This document shows positions 7,676 through 62,981 of a stretch of DNA of 64,000 bases, piece by piece. The position numbers and the translations under genes are program-made. The DNA comes from Candidatus Campbellbacteria bacterium RIFOXYC2_FULL_35_25 (GTDB lineage: Bacteria > Patescibacteriota > Minisyncoccia > Phycocordibacterales > UBA12079): positions 5,356 to 69,355 of the forward strand of contig MFAE01000006.1 of NCBI GenBank assembly GCA_001774495.1, written 5' to 3'. The notes beneath the pieces were generated by a model that did not search any database, was not told where the DNA came from, and saw only the letters and a program-made list of their open reading frames with translations. Every line of letters starts with the position of its first letter. Position 1 is the stretch's first letter.

Positions 7676-7706
7676 CCCCCACACCTTTTTTTAAAAGGTG
7701 TGGGGG
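7676..7706. mobile_element. MITE-like element copy 1 (minimal): 13-14-bp terminal inverted repeats CCCCCACACCTTT/AAAGGTGTGGGGG, 3-5-nt centre, flanked by 4-bp direct repeat TAAA
   Basis: Read directly: taaa-CCCCCACACCTTTT-ttt-AAAAGGTGTGGGGG-taaa. The same inverted repeats and 4-bp duplications occur at 55585-55709 and 62294-62383. Confidence 0.6.
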
Positions 7707-8439: not shown

Positions 8440-8474
8440 CCAAAAAGTTGGGTGTCCGACACCCAACTTTTTGG
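8440..8474 (-). terminator. intrinsic (bidirectional) terminator: ccaaaaagttgggtgtc-g-gacacccaactttttgg
   Basis: Perfect 17-bp palindrome flanked by A- and T-runs, 3' of the helicase gene on the minus strand. Confidence 0.7.
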
Positions 8475-10653: not shown

Positions 10654-10685
10654 ACAAAAAAATCCGCTTTGCGGATTTTTTTTGT
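10654..10685 (-). terminator. intrinsic bidirectional terminator (aaaaaaatccgc-ttt-gcggattttttt)
   Basis: Stem atccgc/gcggat extended by A-run/T-run pairing, about 25 nt 3' of the R1 element on the minus strand. Confidence 0.65.
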
Positions 10686-10708
10686 TTTCTTGATTAGTTG
10701 AATAAGTT

Positions 10709-10815
10709 AAAATTTTGATACAGTTCGAGGAAGTGAAAAAAAATTATTTGAGGCGTATTTATAATACGGTGAAAATAATTTTTTTAAAACTGACGAAGAA
10801 CTGTGCAAAATTTGG
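10709..10815 (-). ncRNA. R1: candidate structured RNA (novel family, paralog of R2 and R3) starting 2 nt after the cupin stop codon
   Basis: Three nested helices: outer aaattttg/caaaattt, second acagttc/gaactgt, central hairpin cgtat-tataa-atacg. Conserved cores CGTATT.TAATACGCCTC and GCTTCCTCGAACTGTATC are shared with R2 and R3, with compensatory substitutions. Confidence 0.6.
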
Positions 10816-10817
10816 AC

Positions 10818-11216
10818 TTATTCTGTAGTTGTTCCATCAAAATGTTCATCATCAGCCTCAGCCTCTTCTTTTGTTGTATGGATAACTCCGTTTCTGTGAT
10901 GAGCTGGGGAATAGATAGTGTAAAGTTTCATATCTTCAGTTTCAGAAGTATTGATAACATTATGGTCTGTCCCGGCTGGAATTAGGATAGCAAAACCATC
11001 TTCAACAGCAGTTTCAACTCCATCTAAAATTACTTTTCCTTCCCCTGAATCTACTCTGAAAAATTGGTCAGTATCTTCATGAACCTCCATCCCAATTTCT
11101 TCCATTGGTTTCAGACTCATAAGAACTAGTTGGCTGTACTTCCCGGTGTAAAGAACTTCTCTAAAATTTGAGTTCTCTTTAGTTAACTTCTCTATGTTTT
11201 TTATAAATCCATGCAT
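10818..11216 (-). CDS. cupin-domain protein
   Basis: 132 aa, single cupin_2-like beta-barrel (G.DHNVINTSE...LYTIYSPAHH). Confidence 0.6.
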   Translation of the reverse strand: MHGFIKNIEKLTKENSNFREVLYTGKYSQLVLMSLKPMEEIGMEVHEDTDQFFRVDSGEGKVILDGVETAVEDGFAILIPAGTDHNVINTSETEDMKLYTIYSPAHHRNGVIHTTKEEAEADDEHFDGTTTE

Positions 11217-11232
11217 AATATTTTTAAATTAA

Positions 11233-11523
11233 TTAGTAATTTTCTATAATTATATCATAATGTTCTTTGTTATTTTTTCCAAATAACTCCAAACTTTTTT
11301 TATCACTTTTTTCCTTCATTTCAAATGACATTTCATTCCAATTATCCCAAATTCTTATCAATTCATTTTTGGTTGGTTCTTCATGAATAAGCTCAATCCC
11401 AGTCTCGGCTCTCCATAAATGAATTGGATCATTTAACAAACTATTAGCTACATCTTTAGGATACTTTTCTAAAATTTCTTTTTTTGAATAAGGAAGTTTA
11501 TACATTAACCTTAATAATAACAA
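11233..11523 (-). CDS. hypothetical protein
   Basis: 96 aa ORF between the R2 terminator and the cupin gene. No recognisable domain. Confidence 0.4.
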   Translation of the reverse strand: MLLLRLMYKLPYSKKEILEKYPKDVANSLLNDPIHLWRAETGIELIHEEPTKNELIRIWDNWNEMSFEMKEKSDKKSLELFGKNNKEHYDIIIENY

Positions 11524-11535
11524 AGAAATTTTAGT

Positions 11536-11570
11536 AAAAAAAGGATTTTGCTTCGCAAAATCCTTTTTTT
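11536..11570 (-). terminator. intrinsic bidirectional terminator (aaaaaaaggattttgc-ttc-gcaaaatcctttttttt)
   Basis: Perfect 9-bp stem with A- and T-runs, 3' of R2 on the minus strand. Confidence 0.7.
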
Positions 11571-11598
11571 ACTACATATGTTATTGTTTCTAAATAAT

Positions 11599-11707
11599 TT
11601 CAAATTTAGATACAGTTCGAGGAAGCAAGGGAAAATTTTTCGAGCCTTATTTCCTATAAGGTGAGAATAATTTTTCTGAAGATGACAAAGAAACTCGCCA
11701 ATTTTGA
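11599..11707 (-). ncRNA. R2: candidate structured RNA (paralog of R1/R3) starting 10 nt after the secA stop codon
   Basis: Same architecture as R1. The central hairpin ccttat-aggaa-ataagg has a G-C to U-A compensatory change relative to R1, and the 3' core CTTCCTCGAACTGTATC is shared. Confidence 0.6.
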
Positions 11708-11716
11708 AGTTATTTA

Positions 11717-14248
11717 TTATTTTCCACAGCACTTTTTGTATTTTTTGCCACTACCACAAGAACACAAATCATTCCTCCCCAGTTTCTCTCCCTGATTTAC
11801 AATTGGTTTTTGAACCTGCCCTTCTCCTTCTGACCCTGCTTTTTCGGTAATACTCTTTGCTTGTTCATGGATGGCTTGTAGTTGTTGCTGTTCTCTAACA
11901 AAAGCTCCAGCTCCCATACTTGGAATAAAGTGTAAAATCTTTTCATTGATTACCCACTGCATTTCCTTAAACATATTCAATCCTTCTCTTTTATATTCAA
12001 CAAGAGGGTCTCTTTGCCCATAGGCACGTAAATTAACTGATGAACGCAAATAATCCATTACTTCTAAGTGTTCTACCCAAAGCATATCAATAGTTTGCAA
12101 CATCAGTCTTCTCATAACATCAAAAAATTCGATGTCACCCAACAAACCCCTTTTTTCTTTAATAATTAACCCCAGACTTTCCCGAGTACCAAAAAGTTCC
12201 ACAGCTTCTTCGGATGAAGTGCTGTAAACTTCTTCAATAATTCCTTCCAAAATATCTTCTATTTCTTTATCTGTGCCAAACAAAATTTTTCTTCTTCTTT
12301 CGTAAACAATTTTTCTTTGGTAATTTAAAATATCATCATATTGCAAAACATGTTTTCTGGAATCAAAATTAAACCCTTCAATTTTTTCTTGGGCTGATTC
12401 AAGGGAGCGGGTTATCATTTTATTCTGGATAGCCTCATCTTCAGGGATTCCCAATTTGCCCATAAGATTTTTAACCATATCAGAAGCAAACACTCTCATA
12501 AGAGTATCTTCTAGGGAAACAAAAAATTGTGTTTCTCCTGGGTCTCCCTGCCTTCCAGAACGACCTCTCAACTGATTATCTATTCTTCGAGATTCATGTC
12601 TTTCTGTCCCCATAACAAACAATCCGCCCAAACTCTTAACTTCTTTATATTTTTCTGGGGTCATTGGAATACCGCCAAGTTTAATATCAACTCCTCGTCC
12701 GGCCATGTTTGTAGCAACGGTTACTCTACCTTTTTCCCCCGCTTGAGCAATAATTTCACCTTCATTTTCGTGATTTTTTGCATTTAATAATTCGTGTTTT
12801 ATTCCCTCCGCTTTTAAATACTGTGAGAGTAATTCATTTTTATCAATAGAAACTGTTCCAATCAAAACTGGCTGACCTGTTTTATTTAATTCTTTTACTT
12901 TTTTTGCTAGGGCTTTAAATTTTCCTGTCTCTGTTTGAAAAATTAAATCGTCCTGATCTTTTCTTTGAATATCTTGGTGGGTAGGAATAACCACTGTCTC
13001 CAAACCATAAACTTTGTAAAACTCTTCTGAAGAAGAGTGCGCTGTTCCTGTCATTCCTGACAATTTTTTGTAAAGACGAAAATAATTTTGGAAAGTAATA
13101 GAAGCATAAGTTCGTGATTCTTTCTGAACTTTTAATCCCTCTTTAGCTTCTATCGCTTGGTGTAAACCTTCTGACCACCTTCTCCCTGGTTGTAAACGAC
13201 CAGTAAATTCATCAACAATAATTATTTCTCCTTCTTTAACAACATACTCCTTGTTTGCATTAAAAAGCGCCTTGGCTCTAACCGCTGTTTCAAGATGGTG
13301 AACAAATTTGATTCCCTTTTCAGTATAAATATTTTCTATGCCTAATATTTTTTCTGCCTTTTCTACCCCAGCGTCTGTCAGTGTCACTGCTTTAAATTTT
13401 TCTTCTACCTCAAAATCTGTATCCCTAATCATTTTAGTCGCAATTTTCGCAAACTGTGCATACAAATCTTCTGAATCTGTAGTGGGTGTTGAAATGATCA
13501 AAGGGGTTCTCGCTTCATCAATAAGAATAGAGTCTATCTCATCTACAATAGCAAAGTTGTATTCTCTCTGACGAATTTGTTCTTTTCTGTATTCAATATT
13601 ATCTCTCAAATAATCGAAACCAAACTCGTTGTTTGTTCCATAAGTTATATCAGCTCCATAAGCCTCCTTTCTTGTGCAAGGGCGAAGAAACTCATCAACA
13701 ATTTTATAAGAACCTTCTTCATCTCTTTCTTTATCTAGTTCTGTGTGAGTTGAGTCATAAAGATATGATTGTTCACTGTTTATAATTCCGATACTCAAAC
13801 CAAGAGCTGAATAAACTTGTCCCATCCAAACAGCATCTCTTCGTGAAAGATAATCGTTAACAGTAACGACGTGCACTCCTTTTCCTTCTAAAGCATTCAA
13901 ATAAACGGGCAATGTCGCAACCAAAGTTTTTCCTTCTCCTGTTCTCATTTCGGCAATTTTTCCTTGATGTAAAATAATTCCCCCAAAAAGTTGAACATCG
14001 TAGTGTCTTTCTCCTAAATTTCGTTTAGATGTTTCTCTTACAAGAGCAAAAGCTTCTGGCAACAACTCATCTAGGGTCTCCCCCTCTTTCAACCTGTCTC
14101 TATATTCTTTTGTTTTATTTTTTAAAGCTTCTTCAGATAAATTCAAAAAACTATCCTCCCAAGAATTAATTTTTTCCACTAAAGGCTGAAGATCTTTCTG
14201 AGCCTTTTTATTTTCATCCCCACTTAATATTTTCTTTAAAAAATTCAT
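11717..14248 (-). CDS. secA: preprotein translocase ATPase SecA
   Basis: 843 aa. DEAD-like motor motifs (GEGKTLVATLPVYLNAL), preprotein cross-linking domain, C-terminal zinc-binding CSCGSGKKYKKCCGK. Confidence 0.93.
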   Translation of the reverse strand: MNFLKKILSGDENKKAQKDLQPLVEKINSWEDSFLNLSEEALKNKTKEYRDRLKEGETLDELLPEAFALVRETSKRNLGERHYDVQLFGGIILHQGKIAEMRTGEGKTLVATLPVYLNALEGKGVHVVTVNDYLSRRDAVWMGQVYSALGLSIGIINSEQSYLYDSTHTELDKERDEEGSYKIVDEFLRPCTRKEAYGADITYGTNNEFGFDYLRDNIEYRKEQIRQREYNFAIVDEIDSILIDEARTPLIISTPTTDSEDLYAQFAKIATKMIRDTDFEVEEKFKAVTLTDAGVEKAEKILGIENIYTEKGIKFVHHLETAVRAKALFNANKEYVVKEGEIIIVDEFTGRLQPGRRWSEGLHQAIEAKEGLKVQKESRTYASITFQNYFRLYKKLSGMTGTAHSSSEEFYKVYGLETVVIPTHQDIQRKDQDDLIFQTETGKFKALAKKVKELNKTGQPVLIGTVSIDKNELLSQYLKAEGIKHELLNAKNHENEGEIIAQAGEKGRVTVATNMAGRGVDIKLGGIPMTPEKYKEVKSLGGLFVMGTERHESRRIDNQLRGRSGRQGDPGETQFFVSLEDTLMRVFASDMVKNLMGKLGIPEDEAIQNKMITRSLESAQEKIEGFNFDSRKHVLQYDDILNYQRKIVYERRRKILFGTDKEIEDILEGIIEEVYSTSSEEAVELFGTRESLGLIIKEKRGLLGDIEFFDVMRRLMLQTIDMLWVEHLEVMDYLRSSVNLRAYGQRDPLVEYKREGLNMFKEMQWVINEKILHFIPSMGAGAFVREQQQLQAIHEQAKSITEKAGSEGEGQVQKPIVNQGEKLGRNDLCSCGSGKKYKKCCGK

Positions 14249-14374
14249 GATTTGCTTATATTAACACAAACGAGGTTCCAAATAAACAGAAGCTTGATTT
14301 TATTATCAAAATTGATTATAAATAACAACAGAAATCGGTAGTTAAATCTAAACCATTACAAAAAGGGGCGAAAA

Positions 14375-14542
14375 ATGGAAGGGACGGATTGTTTGTGTAA
14401 CATGGGGAAGATTTATGCCGGGGACTTCAAACCCAAAGTTCCTCTTGCGGAACAGTTTCAAATCTTCAAATGTGCTCAGCACTGTGGAAAAATGTTTTTC
14501 CTCCGGAACGGGCAATTCGTTGAAATGGCCCAACCACACTGA
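14375..14542 (+). CDS. small Cys-rich protein (55 aa; CxC...CxxxC), GC-enriched, not in the ORF track
   Basis: Own translation: MEGTDCLCNMGKIYAGDFKPKVPLAEQFQIFKCAQHCGKMFFLRNGQFVEMAQPH. Purine-rich ribosome-binding site aaaaggggcgaaaa before the ATG, and a perfect terminator 35 nt downstream. Confidence 0.45.
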   Translation: MEGTDCLCNMGKIYAGDFKPKVPLAEQFQIFKCAQHCGKMFFLRNGQFVEMAQPH

Positions 14543-14576
14543 AGTCTAAGCAGCAACAGACCACACAAAAGAGCAA

Positions 14577-14610
14577 AGGGTTCCGGAGCGCTAGCTCCGA
14601 AACCTTTTTT
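14577..14610 (+). terminator. intrinsic terminator (ggttccggagc-gcta-gctccgaaacc + tttttt)
   Basis: Palindromic GC-rich stem followed by a T-run, directly after the small Cys-rich ORF. Confidence 0.7.
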
Positions 14611-14627
14611 ACTTCCCATACTTTGTG

Positions 14628-15402
14628 TGCTATGTGCTAAGCTAAGCTTAGCACATTTTATTTTATTCAAAATCAATTACCAAATCTCTTTCTTCTTCAT
14701 CTTCTCCAAAGTCTTTAGTTCCACTTTTGTTATTAAATTCCTTATATTCTTGGTTATTATCAAACTGACCTTTAATAATTTCATAACTTAATAAATTCCC
14801 CCAACGACTCTCGCCAACATAATCCTGAAAACTTGACCATGGGTATTTTTCTTCTTTATTCTTCCATTCTTTTATACCTCTAGGATTTCTATGAATATAA
14901 GCAGATAGATAAAGTAATTGTTCGTTAGATTCAATATGAACTACCTTAAAGGTTCCTTGAAATAAATGCCCTGTTTTTGCATATTTTTTATTATGATATT
15001 TGGTAAAGGATGTACCGATTCGGTGCATATACTGAGAGATTCCACCCTCTTTTGTCTCCCTAAGAGTTAAATGAAAATGATTAGGCATTAAGCAAAAATT
15101 GATCAATTCAACATATCTGTTTTTTATAACTAAATCTAGCTGATCTTTTTTAAAATAAAAAAAATTTCTTTTTACAAAAAAACTAACTGAACGAGAAATA
15201 TTTAAAAAACTAAAGGTAGACTGAAAATAAATAATTAAAAATAAAAAACGAACATAATCACGAATGTCTAAAAAAATATTTTGTTTATTATTCCCCCTAT
15301 TATAAACGTGGTAATATTCACCCACAGAAATTTCTACTTTTCTCATAAGTATTATAATACACAAAAACCTTAAAATGTGCAAAGCTAAGCTTAGCACATT
15401 TT
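14628..15402 (-). mobile_element. IS200/IS605-family (RAYT-like) element: Y1 HUH transposase gene flanked by identical subterminal hairpins
   Basis: Left hairpin atgtgctaagc-taa-gcttagcacat at 14636-14660 and right hairpin aatgtgcaaagc-taa-gcttagcacatt at 15374-15400, in the same orientation either side of the tnpA ORF. No TnpB gene. Confidence 0.65.
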
Positions 15403-15418
15403 GCACTTTTAGTTCCAA
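14663..15418 (-). CDS. tnpA: IS200/IS605-type Y1 (HUH) transposase TnpA / REP-associated tyrosine transposase-like
   Basis: YHVYNRGNNKQNIF, HUH motif MPNHFHLTL, catalytic Tyr region QLLYLSAYIHRNP. The likely real start is internal MRKVEIS (about 15346); the upstream extension overlaps the right hairpin and the murB stop. Confidence 0.7.
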   Translation of the reverse strand: MELKVQNVLSLALHILRFLCIIILMRKVEISVGEYYHVYNRGNNKQNIFLDIRDYVRFLFLIIYFQSTFSFLNISRSVSFFVKRNFFYFKKDQLDLVIKNRYVELINFCLMPNHFHLTLRETKEGGISQYMHRIGTSFTKYHNKKYAKTGHLFQGTFKVVHIESNEQLLYLSAYIHRNPRGIKEWKNKEEKYPWSSFQDYVGESRWGNLLSYEIIKGQFDNNQEYKEFNNKSGTKDFGEDEEERDLVIDFE

Positions 15419-19864: not shown

Positions 19865-20004
19865 CGCATTAGAAATAATTAGTTTTTAACAGTCACAAAA
19901 CCCGTCAAATTAAAAAATTTCTAACGGGGTTCATATAAAGATAATCATATCATATAATAATTAGCAGAACAAAAAAACAAATGATATTATAAAATATAAC
20001 TTAA

Positions 20005-21273
20005 ATGAAACAGCTAATAGAAAAATCAAAAGATAAAACATACAAATTTCTCCGCTGGACCGAAAAATGGACTAAAACTGATATGGTTTACCTCGCTAAA
20101 GGAGGCTTTTGGCTTACTTCGAGTCAGATGATAACCTCTATTCTTGGGCTTATTCTGACAATAATTCTTGCAAATAAATTACCAAAAGAAGTATACGGGA
20201 CATATAAATATGTTCTATCGTTTTTAGGCATCATTGCTCTCCCTTCAATATCAGGGATGGGTTCAGCCATCGCTCAGTCAGTAGCGAAAGGAAAGGAGGG
20301 TTCTTTCATACCGGCAATAAAAACAAAAATAAAATGGGGAACATTAAGCACAGTACTAAGTTTCATCTTCGCAATATACTATTACACCAACGATAATTAC
20401 ATACTTGCCTCTTCCTTTGCTTTATTAGGAATCTTTACCCCCTTCATGGAATCATTTGGATTATATTCAAATTTCCTACACGGGAAAAAAATGTTTGGAA
20501 ATATGAGTAGATATGATGTTTATTCATATTTAATTTCTGTCAGTATAGTTGGAATCACAACTTTTTTTTCCAATAGCGTATTAATTCTGCTCATGTCCTA
20601 TTTTGGATCGTGGACATTAGTCAGATTTATCTTTCTGCAAATAACAATAAAAAAATTCCAACCAAACAAAGAAAAAGATGAAAAAATGGTAAATTATGGG
20701 TGGCATCTAAGCGGAATGCGTGTCGTAGATACAATCTCTTCAAGCTTAGATAAAATTCTCTTATGGCATTTTCTAGGCCCAATACAGGTAGCCACTTATA
20801 GTTTAGCCATCTCGATTCCAACCCATCTCATCGACTTCACAAAGATATTTAACCGCCTAGCATTCCCAAAATTGGCTGAGCAGGAAGAAAGTTCTTTAAA
20901 AAAAATCCTGTTCCCTAAAATACTTAAATTATTTCTGATCACATTAGTATCTTTTATCTTATATATATTAATTGCTCCACTACTATATAAAATTTTCTTC
21001 CCACAATACAAGGAAGCTATTTTCTATTCCCAAATATTTGGAATAGCCATATTAACCCAACCACTAACCCTCATTGCCACTTCATTTACCGCTCAAGCAA
21101 AAACAAAAAAATTATACTGGGTCAATACATTATCTCCTATCTTCTATATAATATTATGTTTGTTGTTAATCCCAACACTAGGTATAATAGGAGCAATTAT
21201 GGCATTTTTAGGCTTAAAAATATTTAAATCGGTTTTATTAATTTATTTTTTTGTAAAAACTAGTGAAAAATAA
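20005..21273 (+). CDS. Wzx-like oligosaccharide flippase (polysaccharide biosynthesis protein, MOP superfamily)
   Basis: 422 aa, 12 TM helices, Wzx-type N-terminus (DMVYLAKGGFWLTSSQ). Confidence 0.6.
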   Translation: MKQLIEKSKDKTYKFLRWTEKWTKTDMVYLAKGGFWLTSSQMITSILGLILTIILANKLPKEVYGTYKYVLSFLGIIALPSISGMGSAIAQSVAKGKEGSFIPAIKTKIKWGTLSTVLSFIFAIYYYTNDNYILASSFALLGIFTPFMESFGLYSNFLHGKKMFGNMSRYDVYSYLISVSIVGITTFFSNSVLILLMSYFGSWTLVRFIFLQITIKKFQPNKEKDEKMVNYGWHLSGMRVVDTISSSLDKILLWHFLGPIQVATYSLAISIPTHLIDFTKIFNRLAFPKLAEQEESSLKKILFPKILKLFLITLVSFILYILIAPLLYKIFFPQYKEAIFYSQIFGIAILTQPLTLIATSFTAQAKTKKLYWVNTLSPIFYIILCLLLIPTLGIIGAIMAFLGLKIFKSVLLIYFFVKTSEK

Positions 21274-22141
21274 AAATTTTAAAATAGACTTTCTGGGAGT
21301 AGGAACAATAAGGGGGGGAACAACATGGGTACATGAATGCTTAAAAGAGCACCCACAAGTCTGTGTTCCCACACCAAAAGAAACACATTTTTTTAACGAT
21401 TCATATAAATACCAAAAGGGGTTAACTTATTATTCTTCATTTTTTAAGTCCAAAAAATGTAAAGTGAGGGGAGAAATAAATCCCGGCTACTTAAACAACC
21501 CAATGATAGCTGAAAAAATAAAGAAAAATTTTCCAAATATAAAAATATTAATATTTCTTAGAAATCCAATCGAAAGAGCTTGGTCTCATTTTTTAAAACA
21601 CAAAAACAAGGGGTGCAATCAAATAGAAAAATTCGAAGAAATATTAAAAAAAGAAAATATTTACATAAATACTGGTTTTTATTACAAAAATATAAAAAAA
21701 TATATCGAATTATTTGGGAAAGAAAAAGTATTAATACTAATTTACGAAGACCTAGAAAAAAATCCTGAGAAATTTATTGAAAGTATTTATTCTTTTATAG
21801 GAGTTGATAAAACTTTTAAACCGAAGGTACTGAGTAGAAAAGTAAATTATTTAGGTTATAGTAATGCTTATCTCCCAAAATTAAATAAAATACTAATCAG
21901 GCCATCTAAATTGCTGCCTAAAAAATTATTAAAACTTCTTAAAAAAAGTCGTCTTATTGAAAAAATTTTCTTAAACATAAGAAAAATTATGTTTAGATTA
22001 AACACCTCAAAAAACCATCCTTACAACAAAAAAACGGAAGAAATTCCTTCAAAACTAAGAAAAGAAATGAAAGAAATATACAAGGAAGATATCCAAAATA
22101 TAGAAAAATTAATGAAAAGAAATCTAAATTTTTGGAAATAA
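21263..22141 (+). CDS. sulfotransferase-family protein (PAPS-dependent carbohydrate sulfotransferase-like)
   Basis: 292 aa. 5'-PSB-like motif LGVGTIRGGTTW near the N-terminus and a 3'-PB-like region (RNPIERAWSHF). Overlaps the flippase gene by 11 nt, suggesting an operon. Confidence 0.6.
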   Translation: MKNKNFKIDFLGVGTIRGGTTWVHECLKEHPQVCVPTPKETHFFNDSYKYQKGLTYYSSFFKSKKCKVRGEINPGYLNNPMIAEKIKKNFPNIKILIFLRNPIERAWSHFLKHKNKGCNQIEKFEEILKKENIYINTGFYYKNIKKYIELFGKEKVLILIYEDLEKNPEKFIESIYSFIGVDKTFKPKVLSRKVNYLGYSNAYLPKLNKILIRPSKLLPKKLLKLLKKSRLIEKIFLNIRKIMFRLNTSKNHPYNKKTEEIPSKLRKEMKEIYKEDIQNIEKLMKRNLNFWK

Positions 22142-22144
22142 AAC

Positions 22145-23062
22145 TTACTCCTTTTCAGCAATAAACCAGATATAATTTACTCGACCAGTTAAAACAACTA
22201 GCCTACTTAAGCTAACGCCTACTATTTTTTTAATAAAACTATTTTTTGCGTATCTTCTTTTTGATTGATTATTCTCATCAAAAACTACTTTGGATGAAAT
22301 ACTTTCTTGTTTCTTTTTATCTAAAAGGCCTAACCTAAAAAGGGACTCTCTAATAGGTAAATTATTTTGATTAAAATCCCTTTTTCCTGTGGCAACTATT
22401 TTAAAACCTCCCTTTTTTAAGAGTTCCCTCAATGTATTTTTATTAAAATAATAAAGGTGTTCTTTATAAATTAACTTATTTTTATAATTAGATTTTTTTA
22501 TAGAATATGAATTAATATCAGGAGTTTCTATAATTAAACGACCTTCTTTTGGCAAAGAATCAAACACTTCTTTGATTGCTGCCAGAGGATCATTGAGATG
22601 TTCGATTAAATGGAACATTGTTACTACTTTTATATTATTTCTGGAAACAATTTCTTTTAAACCATCTTCAATAGTTTTTTGGTAAACAATTAAGTTATTT
22701 TTTGTATAAAATTCAGACGCTTCACTATTTGGCTCTATCCCTATAATATTTTCATACTCAGCATCAGACAGTGTTTTTAAAAATAATCCCCGGCCAGTAC
22801 CGATATCGCATAAATTTTTCAAATCAACATATTTTGAAAAAAGATTAACCCTATCCTTCATATCCAAGATTTTGGCATGAATTTTTTCATCATTCAGGTC
22901 AATTTTTTTTATACCTTGATTTTCATAATGTTTTATATCAACATCAAAATTTGCTCTCCAAACCAAACCGCATTCCAAGCACTCCCTCATCAAGAGATTG
23001 CTCATCAATTTTTCTGTCGAATCTTTATGGCACAAAATACACTTTTGAGGGGAAGTTTTCAT
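22145..23062 (-). CDS. class I SAM-dependent methyltransferase with N-terminal zinc ribbon
   Basis: CxxC...CxxC (CILCHK...CLECGLVW) followed by a Methyltransf_11/23 fold (DIGTGRGLF). Confidence 0.6.
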   Translation of the reverse strand: MKTSPQKCILCHKDSTEKLMSNLLMRECLECGLVWRANFDVDIKHYENQGIKKIDLNDEKIHAKILDMKDRVNLFSKYVDLKNLCDIGTGRGLFLKTLSDAEYENIIGIEPNSEASEFYTKNNLIVYQKTIEDGLKEIVSRNNIKVVTMFHLIEHLNDPLAAIKEVFDSLPKEGRLIIETPDINSYSIKKSNYKNKLIYKEHLYYFNKNTLRELLKKGGFKIVATGKRDFNQNNLPIRESLFRLGLLDKKKQESISSKVVFDENNQSKRRYAKNSFIKKIVGVSLSRLVVLTGRVNYIWFIAEKE

Positions 23063-23065
23063 TTT

Positions 23066-24040
23066 TTATTTTTCTAAAGAAAAAAGTACATCACCTTTTG
23101 ACATTTTTTGATGAATATCAAGTTTCGACTTAACTCCATTAACATCCAAACGATAAATAGTATAGCCTAGAGAGTTCATAAACTTAAAAACATCAAGTCT
23201 CGTTTCGTTGTTATTGACTTCACAAACAATATTTAATATTTTTTTTCTTTTCAATAAATTTTCCATACCTTTCAGCGCGTCAAGTTCATATCCCTCGATA
23301 TCTATTTTCATAAAATCAACTCTGTCTATATTGTTTTCAACGGCAAAATCATCTATCTTTAGTACATCAATCTTTTGTAATAGTTTTTTGTCATTAAATT
23401 TATCTTTATCAAATTTGAGATCTCCAAATTTATAAAACTTAAATTCAATAAAACTATGCCCCCCATTATTCAAGGGGTGCAGATATAGAGTTAACTTCTC
23501 GTTTTTGTTTCCTACTCCTTTATTTATGGCGAAAATATTTAAAAAAATATTTTCGTTTACATTTTTAACTAAAAAATTGAAATTGTTTTTTTCTGGTTCA
23601 AAAGCGAAAATTTTTCCCTCCTTCCCGACCAATGGCGACAATAGTATCGAAAAATATCCAACATTAGACCCAATGTCAAAAAAAGTATCTCCTTTTTTAA
23701 TGTTGTTTAAAAAAAAATTAGAAATATTAATTTCATAAAGTTTGTGAGAATAAATGTTCCTCTGATTCACTCTTGATAAATCAACATCAATCACCCCTCC
23801 TGTTTTTAATCTCTTTTTAACCCAATTTTCTTCGTAATCATCTCGAAACATTACGCACATCATTTGCTTCAAAAATTCATAAAACCAAAAATAATATCTT
23901 CCTCCTAATTTAAAAGATATATTGCAGAAAAAAACTACTACTTTTCTTTTTTTGTTTTTATCCAAAAAAGAGAAGAGGAACCCTAAGCAACCTCCCGCTA
24001 TTTGAATTATTCTTTTTAAAAAATTTTTCACTCTTTTCAT
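23066..24040 (-). CDS. FkbM-family methyltransferase
   Basis: FFDIGSNVGYFSILL...IFAFEPEKNNF motif typical of Methyltransf_21 (FkbM). Confidence 0.7.
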   Translation of the reverse strand: MKRVKNFLKRIIQIAGGCLGFLFSFLDKNKKRKVVVFFCNISFKLGGRYYFWFYEFLKQMMCVMFRDDYEENWVKKRLKTGGVIDVDLSRVNQRNIYSHKLYEINISNFFLNNIKKGDTFFDIGSNVGYFSILLSPLVGKEGKIFAFEPEKNNFNFLVKNVNENIFLNIFAINKGVGNKNEKLTLYLHPLNNGGHSFIEFKFYKFGDLKFDKDKFNDKKLLQKIDVLKIDDFAVENNIDRVDFMKIDIEGYELDALKGMENLLKRKKILNIVCEVNNNETRLDVFKFMNSLGYTIYRLDVNGVKSKLDIHQKMSKGDVLFSLEK

Positions 24041-25179
24041 TTTTTACTTACTAAGAATCTAAACAAATTATCAAATTCTTTAATAACCATACTAACACTA
24101 ATTTCGTTCGTTTGCCTCAAAGCCTCTTTCTTATCATAAGCCCTAGCATTCATCACATATAATTCTGGTTTCTCTCGATTGTCGATACAAACAACCCTGT
24201 GGATATCACTAATAGGAGGCTGTTCTCTTTCATCAATTGGACCAGTGATATCTATTGTAGCTACCCCGAAAGCTTCAGCAATATAAATTGGGCCAGTATC
24301 CACGCTAATAAAAATATTCATTTTTGAAATTAAAACTTTTAATTCATCTATATTAAACGCATCTAGTGTATTAAAAATTTGAGTATCTTTACTTAAGAAA
24401 CTAATCATTTCTTTTACCTCAACTTCATCCCTCTTCCCTCCAATAACAATGATTTTAGCATCATATTTTTTATAAATATAATCAGCCAATTCGGCGAACT
24501 TATCTGCCCCCCATTTTTTTATTTTATTTCCAGCAGAAGGAGATATTCCGATAACCAAATCATTTTTATTTATATTATTATTTCCAAAATAATTATTTAC
24601 TTTTTTATTTGCTTCATCAGAAAAATATAAATATTTTTTAGTATCAGTAACGAAAATATCAATAGGCTCTAATAGTTTTAAATACTCTCTGGGGGCATAA
24701 CTTCCCATTTTATGAGACATTGTAATAACCAGTTTTCTTAAAATTTTATATTCCCATACTTCATAAGGGGAATATCCGTTTTCTATAAAAGGAACAACTA
24801 TTGTTTTAACATTAGCTAAATATAAAATAGCCAAACTAACAAAATCAGGAGCTGTCACACAAGCAAAATCTACATTTTCTTTTTTTACTTCTTTAACAAC
24901 TCTTAAAAAATTATTGAATACAATATACTTGTTTACATCGCTGTTCCCTTCTAGAATATCCTTATTAATTTTATTCCCTACTACGATTACTTCACAATCT
25001 GGGTATTTCCCCTTCACCGCCCTAAACATTGGGGTGGTGCAAACCATATCCCCCAATTTAGCCATCTGAACAACTAAAACTTTTCTAGATTTATCTACTT
25101 TTTTATTCGCCTTACCTTTGTAGATAGAAAAAAATAAACAGAACAAAAGTAATATTATTTTTTTTATTTTAAAAATCAT
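24037..25179 (-). CDS. glycosyltransferase family 9 (heptosyltransferase-like)
   Basis: KVLVVQMAKLGDMVCTTPMFRAVK N-terminal GT9 motif, two-domain GT-B. Confidence 0.7.
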   Translation of the reverse strand: MIFKIKKIILLLFCLFFSIYKGKANKKVDKSRKVLVVQMAKLGDMVCTTPMFRAVKGKYPDCEVIVVGNKINKDILEGNSDVNKYIVFNNFLRVVKEVKKENVDFACVTAPDFVSLAILYLANVKTIVVPFIENGYSPYEVWEYKILRKLVITMSHKMGSYAPREYLKLLEPIDIFVTDTKKYLYFSDEANKKVNNYFGNNNINKNDLVIGISPSAGNKIKKWGADKFAELADYIYKKYDAKIIVIGGKRDEVEVKEMISFLSKDTQIFNTLDAFNIDELKVLISKMNIFISVDTGPIYIAEAFGVATIDITGPIDEREQPPISDIHRVVCIDNREKPELYVMNARAYDKKEALRQTNEISVSMVIKEFDNLFRFLVSKK

Positions 25180-25181
25180 TT

Positions 25182-26258
25182 TTATTTTATAAAATCAATC
25201 ACCTGCTCAGATCTTTCCCTCCATGTATAATTTTGAACATCAAAAAAAGATTGCTCTGATATTTTAACACCTAACTCATTATTATTTAAAATTCGACTAA
25301 TACCCTCAGCCAATTTTTTTGAATTATCAGGCTCAACCAAGACTGCATTACCTTCATTAAGAATCTCTCTGATAGACGGCAAATCTGATGCTACAATAGG
25401 AGTTTTTCCTGCCATATATTCAAACATCTTTAAAGGAGACGTGTAGTACTTAGAAATATCCTCTTTGGCTGTGTTGGGCAACACAACAACATCGGCTGAT
25501 TTTATCCAAAATGGCATTTCTTCATGTGGGCGGGAACCTACTAATAAAATATTCTTATATCTTATATTTTTATTTTTAAAATCCTCGACATGATGTTCTT
25601 TTCCTCCCACAAAAACTATCATGGAATTATCGCTCAGGTATTGGGACGATTCAGCCAAAGTTTGAACACCCTTCCATTCGTACAAGAGGCCAATATAAAC
25701 AATGATTTTTTTACCCAACGGTAAATTGAGTTTTTTTCTAGCCTCCTCTTTAGAAATTTCAATATCAAATTTTTTAATATTTACTCCGTCAGGGGAAACA
25801 AAAACATTATTTGTGTTCTGTATGACTTCAGCGAATTTACTTTTTATATATTTTGTTAAAACAATGACTTTATCACTCTTTTCTAAAATATATTTATACC
25901 AAAATGATTTTTTAGAATTGAAATCATGCGCCTCGTAGATAAACTTTAATGGCAACCTAAAAAATAATTTATTATAAAAAATAAGAAAAAATAAAAGCTT
26001 TTCTTCTCGACAATAGATATGAGTAAATTTGTTTTTTTTAATAAAAAATAGATATTTCAAGGACAACAAAAAACTTCGCGAAGATCCTTCTATATTTTTA
26101 ATATTCAAACGAGAGTCTTCTTTTATTTTTATATCTTTTCCGCCTAAAACAAAATTTTCTTTTAAAATACTTTGAAATTCCTGAGACATCTGAATAATTT
26201 GCAGTCTATTCGTCTGGTATGAGGGGAAACTTATTGATGTAGCATATAATAATTTCAT
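25182..26258 (-). CDS. glycosyltransferase family 4 (GT-B)
   Basis: C-terminal Glycos_transf_1-like region (E..G..PIVASD...I). Confidence 0.65.
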   Translation of the reverse strand: MKLLYATSISFPSYQTNRLQIIQMSQEFQSILKENFVLGGKDIKIKEDSRLNIKNIEGSSRSFLLSLKYLFFIKKNKFTHIYCREEKLLFFLIFYNKLFFRLPLKFIYEAHDFNSKKSFWYKYILEKSDKVIVLTKYIKSKFAEVIQNTNNVFVSPDGVNIKKFDIEISKEEARKKLNLPLGKKIIVYIGLLYEWKGVQTLAESSQYLSDNSMIVFVGGKEHHVEDFKNKNIRYKNILLVGSRPHEEMPFWIKSADVVVLPNTAKEDISKYYTSPLKMFEYMAGKTPIVASDLPSIREILNEGNAVLVEPDNSKKLAEGISRILNNNELGVKISEQSFFDVQNYTWRERSEQVIDFIK

Positions 26259-26261
26259 TGT

Positions 26262-27431
26262 TTATTCTAAATCTAATGCTTTTAAATATTGATTTAATAT
26301 TTTTTTTGAATCAAAATCTTCTCCCCTCATTAAACTAAGTCCTGAATATTTTTCTCTCAAACCCTTATCACTTAATAATTTTTGTACCGCTTCTGAAGTT
26401 TCTTTTACCCCGCCCATAGGAACTAGTATTCCATATTTTCCGTATTCGATACCTTCATCCATACGATACAATAGGTCTGTATCCGGAGCAATCATTTCTC
26501 TAGGCCCCGAACTGCAATCTGTGGCTACAACAGGAACCCCACAAACCATTGCTTCCTGAAGTGAATTAGAAAAACCCTCCCAAATTGAGGTAGTAACAAA
26601 GACATCAGCCTTTGTCATAAAAGAATACGAATTTTCAGAAAAACCAAAAAAATCAACATCTTCTCTTACCCCTAATTCTTTGGCAAGCTCTTCCATTTTC
26701 TTTTGTTCACGACCGATACCAACAAATAAAATACGGGATGGTACATTTTTTCGAACTTCTTTAAAAGCCTTCATTAAAGTGGGAATGTCTTTTTGCACCC
26801 TCAACCTACCGACAAATAAAATTACTGGTAAATCTTTATTATCCAACCAAATATGCCCCGTTTTTTCCTTTCCCATTCTCTTTATCTCCTCAACTGATTT
26901 TGGGTTATGAATTACTTTTATTTTATCTTTTGGGATTTTAAAAACTTTTGAAATATCATCGGCCACCCCAAAAGAATTTGCTATAAAAATATCAGAATAC
27001 TTATATATCCTTTTTGTTATAAAAGGAATTAAAAAACCTTGTTTGAAACCTTTGTATTGAGAAAATAATATTGAGAACATATTTCCCATTCGAAAAACTA
27101 CTTTTGTTTCGACTCTTGCTATCTTTTTTGAAACTAGTGAAATAATATGGGTAAACTCATCAGTAGCGATTAAAATATCTGGTTTATTTTTTTTAAGATA
27201 AGAAATCATCTTAGGAATGCTAAAAATTATTCTCCCAACATTTAAATCAATAATGTTTATCCCCTCCTTAACTTGTTCTTTATATTGCCCAACTGGTTTT
27301 ATAACTGGCATATCAACCTTAAACCCTAAATCGGCGAAACCATTGGCCAAATTAACCAGATTTCTCTCGCCCCCTCCGGCTCGAAATGACGACAGAAATA
27401 TTGCTATTTTTTTATTTTTTTTATCTTCCAT
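26262..27431 (-). CDS. glycosyltransferase family 4 (GT-B)
   Basis: GT4 N-domain (KIAIFLSSFRAGGGERN) and C-domain EGFSNSLQEAMVCGVPVVATD. Confidence 0.75.
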   Translation of the reverse strand: MEDKKNKKIAIFLSSFRAGGGERNLVNLANGFADLGFKVDMPVIKPVGQYKEQVKEGINIIDLNVGRIIFSIPKMISYLKKNKPDILIATDEFTHIISLVSKKIARVETKVVFRMGNMFSILFSQYKGFKQGFLIPFITKRIYKYSDIFIANSFGVADDISKVFKIPKDKIKVIHNPKSVEEIKRMGKEKTGHIWLDNKDLPVILFVGRLRVQKDIPTLMKAFKEVRKNVPSRILFVGIGREQKKMEELAKELGVREDVDFFGFSENSYSFMTKADVFVTTSIWEGFSNSLQEAMVCGVPVVATDCSSGPREMIAPDTDLLYRMDEGIEYGKYGILVPMGGVKETSEAVQKLLSDKGLREKYSGLSLMRGEDFDSKKILNQYLKALDLE

Positions 27432-27435
27432 CTTT

Positions 27436-30176: not shown

Positions 30177-30344
30177 TCTTTAATTACTATTTTTTTATTT
30201 TTTTTATCTACATTAACAACAAGTTTCTGTGATTTTATCCAACCCAAATCTCTGATCCCTTCAATAGGCAAGGTAACAAAGTATGTAGGACCATTTTTTG
30301 CTAATTTTCGAATATTTCTATCTTCTAGTTTTCTTCTTGCCATA
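30177..30344 (-). CDS. AbrB/MazE/SpoVT-like swapped-hairpin DNA-binding domain mini-ORF (56 aa), apparently lacking its own stop codon
   Basis: Own translation from ATG 30344: MARRKLEDRNIRKLAKNGPTYFVTLPIEGIRDLGWIKSQKLVVNVDKKNKKIVIK. Matches the V.LP.E.R.LG.K.GD.V.V..D...IVI. pattern of the SpoVT_AbrB domain. In frame with the GT4 ORF downstream. Confidence 0.45.
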
Positions 30345-30358
30345 ATAAGTAAATTTTA

Positions 30359-30394
30359 ACTGTATAATTAACTGTACAGTTAATTATACAGTTA
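30359..30394. promoter_or_regulatory. perfect 36-bp palindrome AACTGTATAATTAACTGTACAGTTAATTATACAGTT (candidate operator overlapping divergent TATAAT boxes)
   Basis: Sequence equals its own reverse complement. Lies 14 nt upstream of the AbrB-like ORF and 140 nt upstream of the plus-strand HAD gene. Carries a TATAAT hexamer on both strands. Confidence 0.6.
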
Positions 30395-30533
30395 ATTCTA
30401 GTTAAAACAATTTTTTCATGCTACTATTTTGAGTATTGGTATTGTATATAAGATATTCACATAATATACAATATTTCGTTATTAATAGTTCGAAATTTCG
30501 TATAAAAACGAGTTATGTGTAATTTATTTTTTC

Positions 30534-32912: not shown

Positions 32913-32921
32913 CTTTTTATT

Positions 32922-62383: not shown

Positions 62384-62397
62384 CAAGCAAAAATAAA

Positions 62398-62427
62398 ATA
62401 CCCCGGCCTGAGGGCACGGGGTATTTT
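62398..62427 (-). terminator. intrinsic bidirectional terminator (taccccg-gcctgagggca-cggggta)
   Basis: 7-bp GC stem with T-runs on both strands, immediately 3' of the R3 element on the minus strand. Confidence 0.6.
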
Positions 62428-62553
62428 GGAATAAACCTAAAATTAGATGCGATTCGGTGAAGCGAGAGCAAAATGGAAGGAGGCGTATTACAATACGACG
62501 ACTGACATTTTGTGAATCGCGACGCCGAAGGGCGCTAATTTTGGGTTTATTCC
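62428..62553 (-). ncRNA. R3: GC-richer paralog of R1/R2, overlapping the stop codon of gene 62547..62981 and abutting a terminator
   Basis: Outer stem cccaaaattag/ctaattttagg (19 bp), second stem gcgattc/gaatcgc, central hairpin cgtatt-gta-atacg followed by CCTCC, and the conserved GCTTCACCGAATCGCATC 3' core. Confidence 0.6.
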
Positions 62554-62981
62554 TCAATTCGAGAAAAACTTAAAGTATTTCCATTAGGCAAATAACTCAA
62601 TTCAAGTCTCTCAATACCAACAAATATTATCGTGTAAGTAAATTCCTCTTCATTAGTTATATTGATTAACTTATAGCCATCAACAAACCAGTTTCCAGAA
62701 TCAATCGACTTTCCGTCGTAAATACTCTCGAATCCCCCATTCTCATTAAAAACAATTACACTTTTAGAATCTTCTTTACTTTCCCAGCGACCAACAAAAT
62801 CTTTTTTCAAATCATAATTATCTTGATAATTATTTTCTTCGATAGCGATTGATTCATCGATAGCTTTTAATTCTTCATTAACAACTTCTTCGTTGGGAAG
62901 GTTTGGGAGAGTGTTTTTATAAAACCAACTTCCAACAGCGACCACAACTAAGATCAAAATAACATAAAATAAATTTTTCAT
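62547..62981 (-). CDS. hypothetical secreted/lipoprotein-like protein
   Basis: 144 aa, N-terminal signal/anchor MKNLFYVILILVVVAVGSWFY. Confidence 0.4.
   Translation of the reverse strand: MKNLFYVILILVVVAVGSWFYKNTLPNLPNEEVVNEELKAIDESIAIEENNYQDNYDLKKDFVGRWESKEDSKSVIVFNENGGFESIYDGKSIDSGNWFVDGYKLINITNEEEFTYTIIFVGIERLELSYLPNGNTLSFSRIEE

What the first reader, a model, noticed from the sequence alone, without database searches (positions are those of the whole stretch)
10709..11707. Two paralogous ~110-nt structured RNA candidates (R1, R2) with compensatory base changes, each placed stop-codon-proximal and followed by an intrinsic terminator
On the minus strand R1 (10815->10709) begins 2 nt after the cupin stop, and R2 (11707->11599) begins 10 nt after the secA stop. 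Each is followed about 25 nt later by a perfect bidirectional terminator.

They share conserved blocks: AAATTTTG, ...AGTTC/TTTC.., ..TTATT.TCACC, GCTTCCTCGAACTGTATC.AAATTT.

The central hairpin differs by a compensatory pair: R1 cgtat-tataa-atacg versus R2 cttat-aggaa-ataag (G-C becomes U-A). The terminal arms are inverted (aaattttg...caaaattt).

Protein coding is unlikely: the overlapping ORF 11511..11732 is not conserved in R1, and the substitutions preserve pairing rather than codons.

A third paralog, R3, is at 62428-62553. The architecture (gene stop, then a ~120-nt three-helix RNA, then a terminator) suggests a 3'-UTR-derived small RNA or a cis-acting 3' element. I cannot match it to a known RNA family.
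Basis: seen in the sequence. Interest (0 to 1): 0.8.

Follow-up and report, generated by a model that had tools for sequence, protein, structure and literature searches.

The report
Palindromic repeat elements at gene ends
Three diverged copies of a ~125-base imperfect-palindrome repeat sit exactly at the stop codons of three unrelated genes in a Candidatus Campbellbacteria genome; they are most likely a small, lineage-restricted family of inserted (MITE/ERIC/REPIN-like) DNA that ends up in the 3' untranslated region, not a conserved regulatory RNA.

Summary
R1 (10700-10823), R2 (11591-11716) and R3 (62428-62553) are homologous (54-71% identity), lie in the same orientation, abut or contain the TAA stop of the upstream gene, and each precedes an intrinsic terminator.

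The interpretation needs correcting. Each copy is one long imperfect hairpin with terminal inverted repeats ((G)GAATAA...TTATTC(C)), not a three-helix RNA.

Four related Campbellbacteria lineages (cupin 77-92% amino-acid identity) have the same gene ends (…GAATAA/GAATAG/GAGTAA) followed directly by a terminator, with no element. A 97.6%-identical strain keeps R1 but lacks R2.

No further copy turned up in about 20 kb more of the source genome, in about 75 kb from related species, or in pattern scans of 185,579 species genomes, JGI metagenomes and viral contigs (apart from the R1 orthologue). Rfam has no match.

Pairing is preserved by double changes (11 of 36 pairs). The same is documented for mobile REPIN DNA, so this does not prove RNA function. 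R2's hairpin has largely decayed.

Best reading: an insertion-derived, non-autonomous palindromic repeat that targets or survives at AATAA stop contexts and is co-transcribed as 3' UTR. It is a new family of a known kind. Interest is modest.

The parts
10700..10823 (-). R1: 124-nt imperfect palindrome. The 5' terminal repeat GAATAAG contains the last codon (GAA) and the TAA stop of the cupin gene; the 3' terminal repeat is CTTATTC.
   Evidence: Sequence. Single long hairpin: -34 kcal/mol, z -11 on the sense strand; -47.3 kcal/mol on the antisense strand. nhmmer and CM hits. Present in the 97.6%-identical strain L052. Absent after cupin in L046, L048, L064-67 and L068.
11591..11716 (-). R2: 126-nt copy starting at the base after the secA stop (TAA|TAAATAAC...ATTATTTA). 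It is the most decayed hairpin.
   Evidence: Sequence. 71% identical to R1. Fold z -1.4 sense, -3.1 antisense. Lies within a 546-nt segment (11223-11768) that is replaced by unrelated sequence in strain L052. Absent after secA in L046, L048 and L068.
62428..62553 (-). R3: 126-nt copy and the best-preserved palindrome (19-nt terminal inverted repeats, perfect apart from one C/T position that pairs as G-U on the plus strand: GGAATAAACCYAAAATTAG; 43% GC). It contains the TAA stop (62547-62549) of the 144-aa ORF.
   Evidence: Sequence. Fold -45.7 kcal/mol sense, -67.5 kcal/mol antisense. 54-57% identical to R1 and R2. The CM scores the minus strand at 123 bits and the plus strand at 38.7 bits.
10818..11216 (-). 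Cupin_2 gene whose final GAA-TAA coincides with R1's 5' terminal repeat.
   Evidence: ORF list. Pfam Cupin_2. All homologues end ...TTE/...TSE, so GAATAA is native.
11717..14248 (-). secA gene, immediately upstream of R2.
   Evidence: ORF list. 100% identical to SecA of Candidatus Campbellbacteria bacterium RIFOXYC2_FULL_35_25.
62547..62981 (-). 144-aa hypothetical ORF whose stop lies in R3. Its C-terminus is RIEE*, against RK* in an 84%-identical homologue.
10656..10682 (.). Bidirectional intrinsic terminator 17 nt downstream of R1. It is native: an equivalent terminator follows cupin in relatives that lack the element.
11532..11574 (.). Bidirectional intrinsic terminator 16 nt downstream of R2.
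62395..62427 (.). Terminator hairpin (AAAATACCCCG...CGGGGTATTTT) directly abutting R3.

Best explanation
R1-R3 are members of a small, lineage-restricted family of non-autonomous, insertion-derived palindromic DNA repeats. They are MITE-like in the broad sense; the closest analogues are ERIC elements and REPINs.

Each copy is a ~125-bp imperfect palindrome with terminal inverted repeats. Each landed at an (A/G)AATAA stop-codon context, upstream of the gene's pre-existing intrinsic terminator.

Because they sit between stop codon and terminator, they are co-transcribed with the upstream gene and fold into a long 3'-UTR hairpin whose base includes the stop codon.

What is shown:
- homology of the copies;
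- palindromic structure with terminal inverted repeats;
- lack of coding capacity;
- empty orthologous sites in relatives;
- a narrow distribution.

What is inferred:
- Insertion, rather than loss in all the relatives.
- Co-transcription.
- Mostly neutral or selfish persistence. Stop-codon adjacency is explained by an AATAA-type target preference plus removal of gene-disrupting insertions.
- Any effect on mRNA stability or translation termination is a by-product of the ERIC kind.

The mobilising enzyme is unknown. No DDE transposase is present in the window. Two IS200-like Y1 (RAYT-like) transposase genes lie nearby, one in the window and one about 3 kb beyond its left end, but they are flanked by different palindromes.
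For: 1. **Copy number and repeat structure.** Three dispersed copies, 54-71% identical, have conserved terminal inverted repeats.
2. **Palindromic on both strands.** Each copy is a whole-length hairpin on either strand, as expected for palindromic DNA.
3. **Empty sites.** Cupin genes of relatives end ACWGAATAA, ACAGAATAG or ACTGAGTAA and run straight into a terminator. This holds for L067 (92% aa), L064-66 (89%), L068-71 (83%), and L046 and L048 (nucleotide identity 78% and 71%). The secA gene ends in L046, L048 and L068 also lack the element.
4. **Presence/absence within the species.** Strain L052 (97.6% nt identity) has R1 but no R2.
5. **No other copies found.** The CM finds none in about 20 kb more of the source genome or about 75 kb of related species. 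A block invariant in all three copies has no true match in 185,579 species-representative genomes or in viral contigs. In JGI metagenomes it matches only the R1 orthologue.
6. **Where the conservation lies.** Sequence conservation is concentrated in the termini and stems: 56% invariant against 36% in unpaired columns.
7. **A decay series.** R3 is a near-perfect palindrome at 43% GC. R1 is good at 27% GC. R2's hairpin is not better than shuffles.
8. **Stop adjacency has a simple explanation.** 21 of 50 genes end in AATAA. On the gene strand, 18 of 44 non-coding-compatible AATAA sites coincide with stops, so AATAA targeting gives p about 0.07 for three of three. Random intergenic insertion gives about 3e-4.
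9. **Published precedent.**
   - Prokaryotic MITEs are under 500 bp, AT-rich, intergenic, form stable stem-loops and lose their target duplications with age.
   - ERICs sit at the 3' ends of Yersinia genes (PMC10969869; PMC2229807).
   - Compensatory changes are common in REPIN hairpins (PMC3116915).
10. **Other palindromic repeats in the same genome.** It carries other palindromic repeat families and two Y1 transposase genes.
Against: - No clean target-site duplication could be established; the candidates are degenerate.
- No autonomous partner or transposase with matching ends was found.
- Only three independent copies were seen, because only about 84 kb of the genome could be read. Copy number genome-wide is unknown.
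- The copies are old and divergent (54-71% identity) yet two still keep strong hairpins with 11 double-compensated pairs. 0 of 500 shuffles reach this. Something, whether selection or arm-to-arm correction, maintains pairing.
- All three copies have the same orientation relative to the upstream gene, and asymmetric internal-loop blocks are conserved (..CGTC.. on the 5' arm, CTTCNNCGAA on the 3' arm).
- In R1 the 5' terminal repeat coincides with native gene sequence. A simple cut-and-paste model does not predict this.
Confidence: 0.65

Rival explanations
1. The elements are a functional cis-acting 3'-UTR element or a 3'-UTR-derived small RNA. On this view the hairpin is selected at the RNA level, for example as a barrier to 3' exonucleases or as a structure sensed by the ribosome. 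A terminating ribosome would melt the base of the stem because the stop codon lies inside it. That could alter mRNA decay or ribosome release, as proposed for ERIC in Yersinia.
For: - The position guarantees transcription within the mRNA, and the stop codon lies inside or abuts the basal stem in all three copies.
- All three share the same orientation relative to the gene.
- 11 of 36 consensus pairs show double changes, with 91.6% of cells paired against 82% in shuffles.
- Asymmetric internal-loop blocks are conserved.
- ERIC provides a precedent: it unmasks an RNase E site at 3' gene ends (PMC2229807; PMC10969869).
- MITE-derived sRNAs are known in Coxiella.
Against: - The element is absent from the same gene ends in every related species sampled, and after secA in a 97.6%-identical strain.
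- No homologue was found outside this species.
- R2's sense-strand fold is indistinguishable from shuffles.
- The antisense strand folds better than the mRNA strand in all three copies: -47 vs -34, -30.5 vs -20.8 and -67.5 vs -45.7 kcal/mol.
- Stems and termini are more conserved in sequence than loops.
- R1 differs between strains at about the same rate as its flanks: 2 indels in 131 nt against 97.6% flank identity.
- Orientation relative to the gene is confounded with replication direction, because almost all genes are on one strand.
Confidence: 0.17
2. The elements are single-strand-DNA hairpin elements mobilised in trans by a Y1/HUH transposase (REPIN/RAYT or IS200/IS605-like). Such elements insert without target duplication immediately 3' of a short specific sequence, here AATAA. 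They insert in one orientation relative to replication. Pairing between the element's 3' end (TTATTC) and the target would restore the symmetric palindrome.
For: - No clear target-site duplication is present.
- The native (A/G)AATAA pre-exists at the empty cupin and secA sites, and ORF144's 84% homologue also ends AAATAA. The element follows it or merges with it.
- All three copies share one orientation on one replichore (GC skew -0.2 throughout).
- One strand folds better, through G-T wobble pairs.
- Two Y1_Tnp genes flanked by palindromes lie within about 20 kb.
- The REPIN model proposes an asymmetric intermediate whose tail pairs with a complementary target, and reports compensatory changes in REPIN hairpins (PMC3116915).
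Against: - The palindromes flanking both Y1_Tnp genes (AAGTTGGGTGTCCGACACCCAACTT; ATGTGCTAAGCTTAGCACAT) are unrelated to R1-R3.
- The arms of R1-R3 are not made of a conserved short REP stem-loop with a GTAG or CGTC tag on both arms.
- The G-U strand asymmetry (11 against 3-4) is not significant.
- The strand that folds better is not the one exposed on the lagging-strand template, as inferred from the skew (this is inference).
Confidence: 0.13
3. The elements are integron-type attC-like recombination sites. These are imperfect palindromes of 57-141 nt at the 3' ends of gene cassettes; R2 and R1, 892 nt apart, would form an integrase-less cluster.
For: - Size, imperfect palindromy and a position directly after ORFs fit.
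- R2 and R1 bracket two small genes.
- Gene order around cupin differs between relatives.
- The bottom strand folds better.
Against: - The defining R'' (RYYYAAC) and R' (GTTRRRY) boxes are absent from all three copies on either strand. The only matches lie at the outer edge of R1, without a partner.
- No tyrosine recombinase is present in the window.
- The boundaries of the segment swapped in L052 do not coincide with the element's ends.
Confidence: 0.03

Closest known systems
ERIC / IRU (enterobacterial repetitive intergenic consensus, 127-bp imperfect palindromes)
   Same: - Almost the same length (about 125 nt).
- A whole-length imperfect palindrome with conserved termini.
- Located in transcribed intergenic or 3' regions and co-transcribed as a long hairpin.
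- No coding capacity.
- ERICs at the 3' ends of Yersinia genes affect mRNA decay in an orientation-dependent way (PMC2229807; PMC10969869).
   Different: - No sequence similarity.
- The host is a Patescibacteria/CPR bacterium, not an enterobacterium.
- The density seen is 3 copies in about 84 kb, and the family appears restricted to one species-level lineage.
- Two of the three copies contain the stop codon and the third abuts it.
- No functional data exist.
REPINs (REP doublets forming hairpins) mobilised by RAYT Y1 transposases
   Same: - Extragenic long hairpins made of inverted halves.
- Compensatory changes across the hairpin.
- No target duplication.
- A proposed target-pairing step (PMC3116915).
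- The genome encodes RAYT-like Y1_Tnp genes flanked by palindromes.
   Different: - R1-R3 are unrelated to the palindromes flanking the two Y1_Tnp genes seen.
- The arms are not built from a recognisable short REP stem-loop.
- Copy number is unknown.
Classical bacterial MITEs (Correia/NEMIS, RUP, and others)
   Same: - Under 500 bp, AT-rich and non-coding, with terminal inverted repeats.
- Intergenic, and forming stable stem-loops when transcribed (PMC10969869).
   Different: - No demonstrable target-site duplication.
- No parent insertion sequence with matching ends.
- Copies are much more divergent (54-71% identity) than in a recent burst.
Integron attC sites / Vibrio VCRs
   Same: Imperfect palindromes of similar length placed directly after ORFs, with strand-biased folding.
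   Different: The R''/R' core motifs are absent, there is no integrase in the window, and there is no cassette array.

Membership tests
Prokaryotic MITE (sensu lato) | Short (under 500 bp), non-coding, several dispersed copies in one genome | tested here: met
   Three copies of 124-126 nt at two loci about 51 kb apart. No conserved ORF.
Prokaryotic MITE (sensu lato) | Terminal inverted repeats | tested here: met
   GGAATAAACCYAAAATTAG appears at both ends of R3 (19 nt; one C/T difference that pairs as G-U on the plus strand). Weaker versions occur in R1 and R2.
Prokaryotic MITE (sensu lato) | Target-site duplication flanking the repeats | tested here: inconclusive
   Only degenerate candidates were found: GAAAATAA/GAAACAATAA at R2, AAAATA at R3, and CAACTA at R1, which conflicts with the conserved C-terminus. 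Duplications are known to fade with age (PMC10969869).
Prokaryotic MITE (sensu lato) | Presence/absence polymorphism at orthologous sites | tested here: met
   The sites after cupin and secA are empty in L046, L048, L064-67 and L068-71. R2 is absent in the 97.6%-identical strain L052, though as part of a larger segment replacement.
Prokaryotic MITE (sensu lato) | Related autonomous element or transposase with the same ends | tested here: not met
   No DDE transposase is present in the window. The terminal repeat occurs only in R3. Only about 10% of the genome could be examined.
REPIN/RAYT system | The element consists of two inverted copies of the REP that flanks a cognate RAYT gene | tested here: not met
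   The Y1_Tnp genes at window 14663-15418 and at L057 13638-14330 are flanked by other palindromes. The CM and nhmmer find no R-type sequence there.
REPIN/RAYT system | Long hairpin with compensatory changes, extragenic | tested here: met
   Literature criterion from PMC3116915.
Integron attC site | R'' RYYYAAC and R' GTTRRRY boxes at the two ends | tested here: not met
   A regex scan of both strands of all three copies finds no paired boxes.
Integron attC site | Associated integron integrase or attC array | tested here: not met
   No Phage_integrase-type protein is found among the window ORFs.
Rfam structured RNA families | Match at or above the gathering score to any of 4227 models | tested here: not met
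   Only tRNA-Gln passes in the window. In E-value mode the weak hits cluster on the terminator hairpins (a few extend into element sequence) and all are far below their gathering scores.
Conserved cis-regulatory 3'-UTR RNA | Retained at orthologous gene ends in related species | tested here: not met
Conserved cis-regulatory 3'-UTR RNA | A discrete transcript, or an effect on the mRNA | not testable with these tools
   No expression data are available.

The most novel reading that the evidence does not exclude
The hairpins may home to gene ends by a single-strand, base-pairing-guided mechanism. The element's 3' end (TTATTC) would pair with the stop context (GAATAA), possibly through a Y1/HUH enzyme, so that the stop codon becomes part of the stem. 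Once in place, the hairpins would act as ribosome-sensed 3'-UTR switches of mRNA stability or translation termination in an ultra-small CPR bacterium. That would make them a stop-codon-targeting mobile RNA/DNA element class.
Probability: 0.1. Interest if true: 0.6.

Novelty: new member of a known kind. Interest (0 to 1): 0.3.

Why it matters
Small palindromic repeats have hardly been described in Patescibacteria/CPR genomes, which are tiny and tightly packed; the one literature search run on this (MITE plus candidate phyla radiation) returned a single, unrelated paper. This window shows that one Campbellbacteria lineage tolerates at least four palindromic repeat families and carries two Y1 transposase genes nearby.

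The R family illustrates how inserted hairpins can end up embedded in stop codons. In one case (ORF144, RK* to RIEE*) the insertion may have rewritten a protein's C-terminus.

For genome scanning, this is a cautionary example. Compensatory substitutions among a few paralogous hairpins do not separate a structured RNA from mobile palindromic DNA.

If the elements turn out to modulate 3'-end stability, they would be an ERIC-like case in a very different phylum. Nothing here demonstrates that.

Tried and rejected
**Searches that found nothing useful**
1. Rfam in gathering mode and in permissive E-value mode: nothing on the elements.
2. Pattern scans using blocks invariant in all three copies.
   - Viral contigs: 10 chance hits with one pattern and 0 with another.
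   - 185,579 species genomes: 23 hits, all confined to the pattern itself and spread over unrelated phyla, so chance.
   - JGI metagenomes: 7 hits, of which one is real, the R1 orthologue in L052.
3. blastn of R3 against plasmid and phage collections: no match.
4. CM search of the window, its flanks and about 75 kb of related Campbellbacteria: no new copies.

**Readings considered and set aside**
5. Protein-coding reading: no frame is open in all three copies.
6. attC reading: the core motifs are absent.
7. TA-duplication (Tc1/IS630-like) reading: the reconstructed empty sites would lack the conserved stop codons, so it is disfavoured.
8. The CAACTA direct repeat around R1 as a target duplication: rejected, because it would require the element to recreate exactly the conserved TTE* C-terminus.
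9. Strand of function from G-U asymmetry: 11 on the antisense strand against 3-4 on the sense strand. This is not significant and may be partly inherited.
10. IHF-site match (WATCAANNNNTTR), checked by eye: present only in R1, so treated as chance.

**Technical dead ends**
11. Extending the window at its right end with the 257-aa ORF failed, because no identical protein is on record. It was done with the 144-aa ORF instead.
Full report
**What is there**

The window is 34% GC. Almost all its genes are on the minus strand, and GC skew is a uniform -0.2. Its SecA is 100% identical to that of Candidatus Campbellbacteria bacterium RIFOXYC2_FULL_35_25, a groundwater Patescibacteria MAG.

On the minus strand, the cupin gene (10818-11216) and secA (11717-14248) are each followed by a ~125-nt element. 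So is a 144-aa hypothetical ORF (62547-62981). I delimit the elements by their inverted termini:
- R1: 10700-10823
- R2: 11591-11716
- R3: 62428-62553

A profile of the three finds only these in the 64 kb, at E 2e-36 to 6e-32. Pairwise identity is 71% (R1/R2), 57% (R1/R3) and 54% (R2/R3).

Each element is followed by a bidirectional intrinsic terminator hairpin, at 10656-10682, 11532-11574 and 62395-62427.

**Anatomy**

Folding shows one long imperfect hairpin per copy, not three helices. The hairpin forms on both strands:

| Copy | Sense strand (kcal/mol, z) | Antisense strand (kcal/mol, z) |
|---|---|---|
| R1 | -34.0, z -11 | -47.3, z -9.6 |
| R2 | -20.8, z -1.4 | -30.5, z -3.1 |
| R3 | -45.7, z -6.8 | -67.5, z -12 |

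The termini are inverted repeats. In R3 they are GGAATAAACCYAAAATTAG at both ends, 19 nt, differing only at the C/T position, which pairs as G-U on the plus strand. R1 has GAATAAG...CTTATTC and R2 has TAAATAAC...ATTATTTA.

The TAA inside the 5' repeat is the stop codon of the cupin gene (R1) and of the 144-aa ORF (R3). R2 begins at the base after the secA stop.

The elements have polarity. The covariance model scores the minus strand at 123-144 bits and the plus strand at 29-52 bits. The reason is a set of conserved asymmetric internal-loop blocks..YGTC.. on the 5' arm and CTTCNNCGAA on the 3' arm.

No reading frame is open in all copies. Rfam has nothing at gathering threshold except tRNA-Gln. 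In permissive mode the weak hits cluster on the terminator hairpins, and all fall far below their gathering scores.

**Covariation**

On the consensus hairpin, 11 of 36 pairs keep pairing through changes on both sides. 91.6% of cells are paired, against 82% in shuffles, and 0 of 500 shuffles reach the observed values. Sliding the 3' partner destroys the signal.

So pairing really is maintained despite 54-71% identity. There are only three independent sequences, however. [quoted passage not shown] This evidence therefore does not separate RNA function from palindromic DNA.

Sequence conservation is higher in paired and terminal columns (56% invariant) than in unpaired columns (36%). That is the reverse of what structured RNAs usually show.

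Counts of G-U pairs favour the antisense strand (11 against 3-4), but not significantly.

**Relatives**

Contigs from the same population carry identical copies.

More distant relatives show empty sites:
- Cupin homologues at 92% (L067) and 89% (L064-66) amino-acid identity end ...ACWGAATAA and reach a terminator after 10-12 nt.
- L046 (GCA_000990765.1), L048 and L068-71 (RIFCSPLOWO2_02_FULL_35_11) also have stop then terminator after cupin. None has an element after secA.
- A strain 97.6% identical over the cupin region (L052) keeps R1, which differs by two homopolymer indels, about the divergence of its flanks. In that strain the 546-nt segment 11223-11768 is replaced by unrelated sequence. 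That segment holds the last 17 secA codons, R2, the terminator and a 96-aa ORF.
- An 84%-identical homologue of the 144-aa ORF ends CGA-AAA-TAA (RK*). The window reads CGA-ATT-GAG-GAA-TAA (RIEE*). The C-terminus therefore changes exactly at the R3 junction.

The terminators are thus native, and the elements lie between stop and terminator. The elements are not retained across species.

**Distribution**

Two look-ups added about 6 kb on the left and 9 kb on the right of the window. Together with about 75 kb from related species, these contain no further copy by CM search.

Exact-pattern scans used blocks invariant in all three copies:
- 185,579 species-representative genomes: only chance matches.
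- Viral contigs: only chance matches.
- JGI metagenome collection: only the R1 orthologue.
- Plasmid and phage records: nothing.

The family appears confined to one species-level lineage. The limit on this statement is that only exact patterns could be scanned.

**Why at stop codons?**

All cupin homologues end TTE* or TSE*. The GAATAA that forms R1's 5' terminal repeat is therefore native sequence. Likewise, AAATAA is the native end of secA and of the ORF144 homologue.

In the window, 21 of 50 genes end in AATAA. On the gene strand, 18 AATAA occurrences coincide with stops and 26 are intergenic.
- An element that prefers AATAA-type sites, and is purged when it disrupts genes, would land on stops about 40% of the time. 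Three of three then has p about 0.07.
- Random intergenic insertion would give about 3e-4.

I could not establish a target-site duplication; the candidates are degenerate or conflict with conserved C-termini. The coincidence between the element's terminus and native target sequence is better explained by target pairing, or by insertion immediately 3' of AATAA, than by a simple cut-and-paste event. This is inference.

**Mobilising enzyme**

Pfam scans of about 40 window ORFs found no DDE transposase or tyrosine recombinase.

There is one IS200-like Y1_Tnp gene in the window, at 14663-15418. It is flanked by AAAATGTGCTAAGCTTAGC... palindromes. A second Y1_Tnp gene lies about 3 kb beyond the left end, flanked by AAGTTGGGTGTCCGACACCCAACTT, and one more copy of that palindrome is at 8445-8469.

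These are RAYT/REP-like arrangements, but their palindromes are unrelated to R1-R3. A REPIN-type mechanism is therefore a rival, not the preferred reading. The attC reading fails the R''/R' motif test.

**Verdict**

The best-supported explanation (about 0.65) is a small, old, lineage-restricted family of insertion-derived palindromic repeats. Their closest analogues are ERIC elements and REPINs, within MITEs in the broad sense.

They sit at AATAA stop contexts upstream of native terminators and are necessarily co-transcribed as 3'-UTR hairpins.

A decay series fits ageing insertions better than a maintained RNA family: R3 is near-perfect at 43% GC, R1 is good at 27% GC, and R2 has largely lost its hairpin.

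An exapted ERIC-like role remains possible (about 0.17) but has no direct support. It would involve ribosomes terminating inside the basal stem and altering mRNA decay or ribosome release (PMC2229807; PMC10969869).

The finding is real and the family is undescribed, but it belongs to a known kind.

Noticed in passing
window 14663-15418 (-), with flanks 14632-14660 and 15371-15399: A 251-aa IS200-like Y1 transposase gene (Pfam Y1_Tnp, E 1.2e-9) is flanked on both sides by the palindrome AAAATGTGCTAAGCTTAGCTT(A/T)GCACAT. This is a RAYT/REP-like arrangement about 400 nt upstream of secA.
   Followed up: partly
window 8445-8469; L057 13636-13659 and 14354-14377 (about 3 kb beyond the left end of the window): A perfect 24-nt palindrome, AAGTTGGGTGTCCGACACCCAACTT, flanks a second 230-aa Y1_Tnp gene just outside the window. 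It recurs once in the window, between the Pif1-helicase gene and the next gene.
   Followed up: partly
window 7676-7706, 55585-55709, 62294-62383: Another repeat family: CCCCCACACCTTT / AAAGGTGTGGGGG occurs as three inverted pairs, against 0.05 matches expected by chance. One pair is a tight terminator-like hairpin. The other two have arms 99 and 64 nt apart, with about 19-nt inverted ends at 62294-62383, next to R3 and its terminator.
   Followed up: partly
window 14249-14630: A ~380-nt non-coding stretch, richer in GC than its surroundings, lies between the Y1_Tnp gene and secA. It has no Rfam match even at E 0.1, and its fold z-score is only -2.2. Its nature is unknown; it could be an ncRNA, a pseudogene or a long 5' UTR.
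   Followed up: partly
window 11223-11768 vs L052 1396-1917: Between strains that are 93-98% identical, a segment is swapped for unrelated sequence. In the window it holds the last ~17 codons of secA, R2, a terminator and a 96-aa ORF. In L052 it encodes a different SecA C-terminus and a 121-aa ORF. Gene order around cupin and Pif1 also differs among related Campbellbacteria.
   Followed up: partly
window 43068-47225 (-), repeats 44107-46424: A 1385-aa ORF with one fn3 domain contains several long internal direct repeats (98-300 nt, 65-93% identical). It is probably a repetitive surface protein.
   Followed up: no
window 20000-38000: A large cluster of glycosyltransferase, methyltransferase, sulfotransferase and polysaccharide-synthesis genes has lower GC (29-31%) than the rest of the window. 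It is probably a variable cell-surface glycan island.
   Followed up: no
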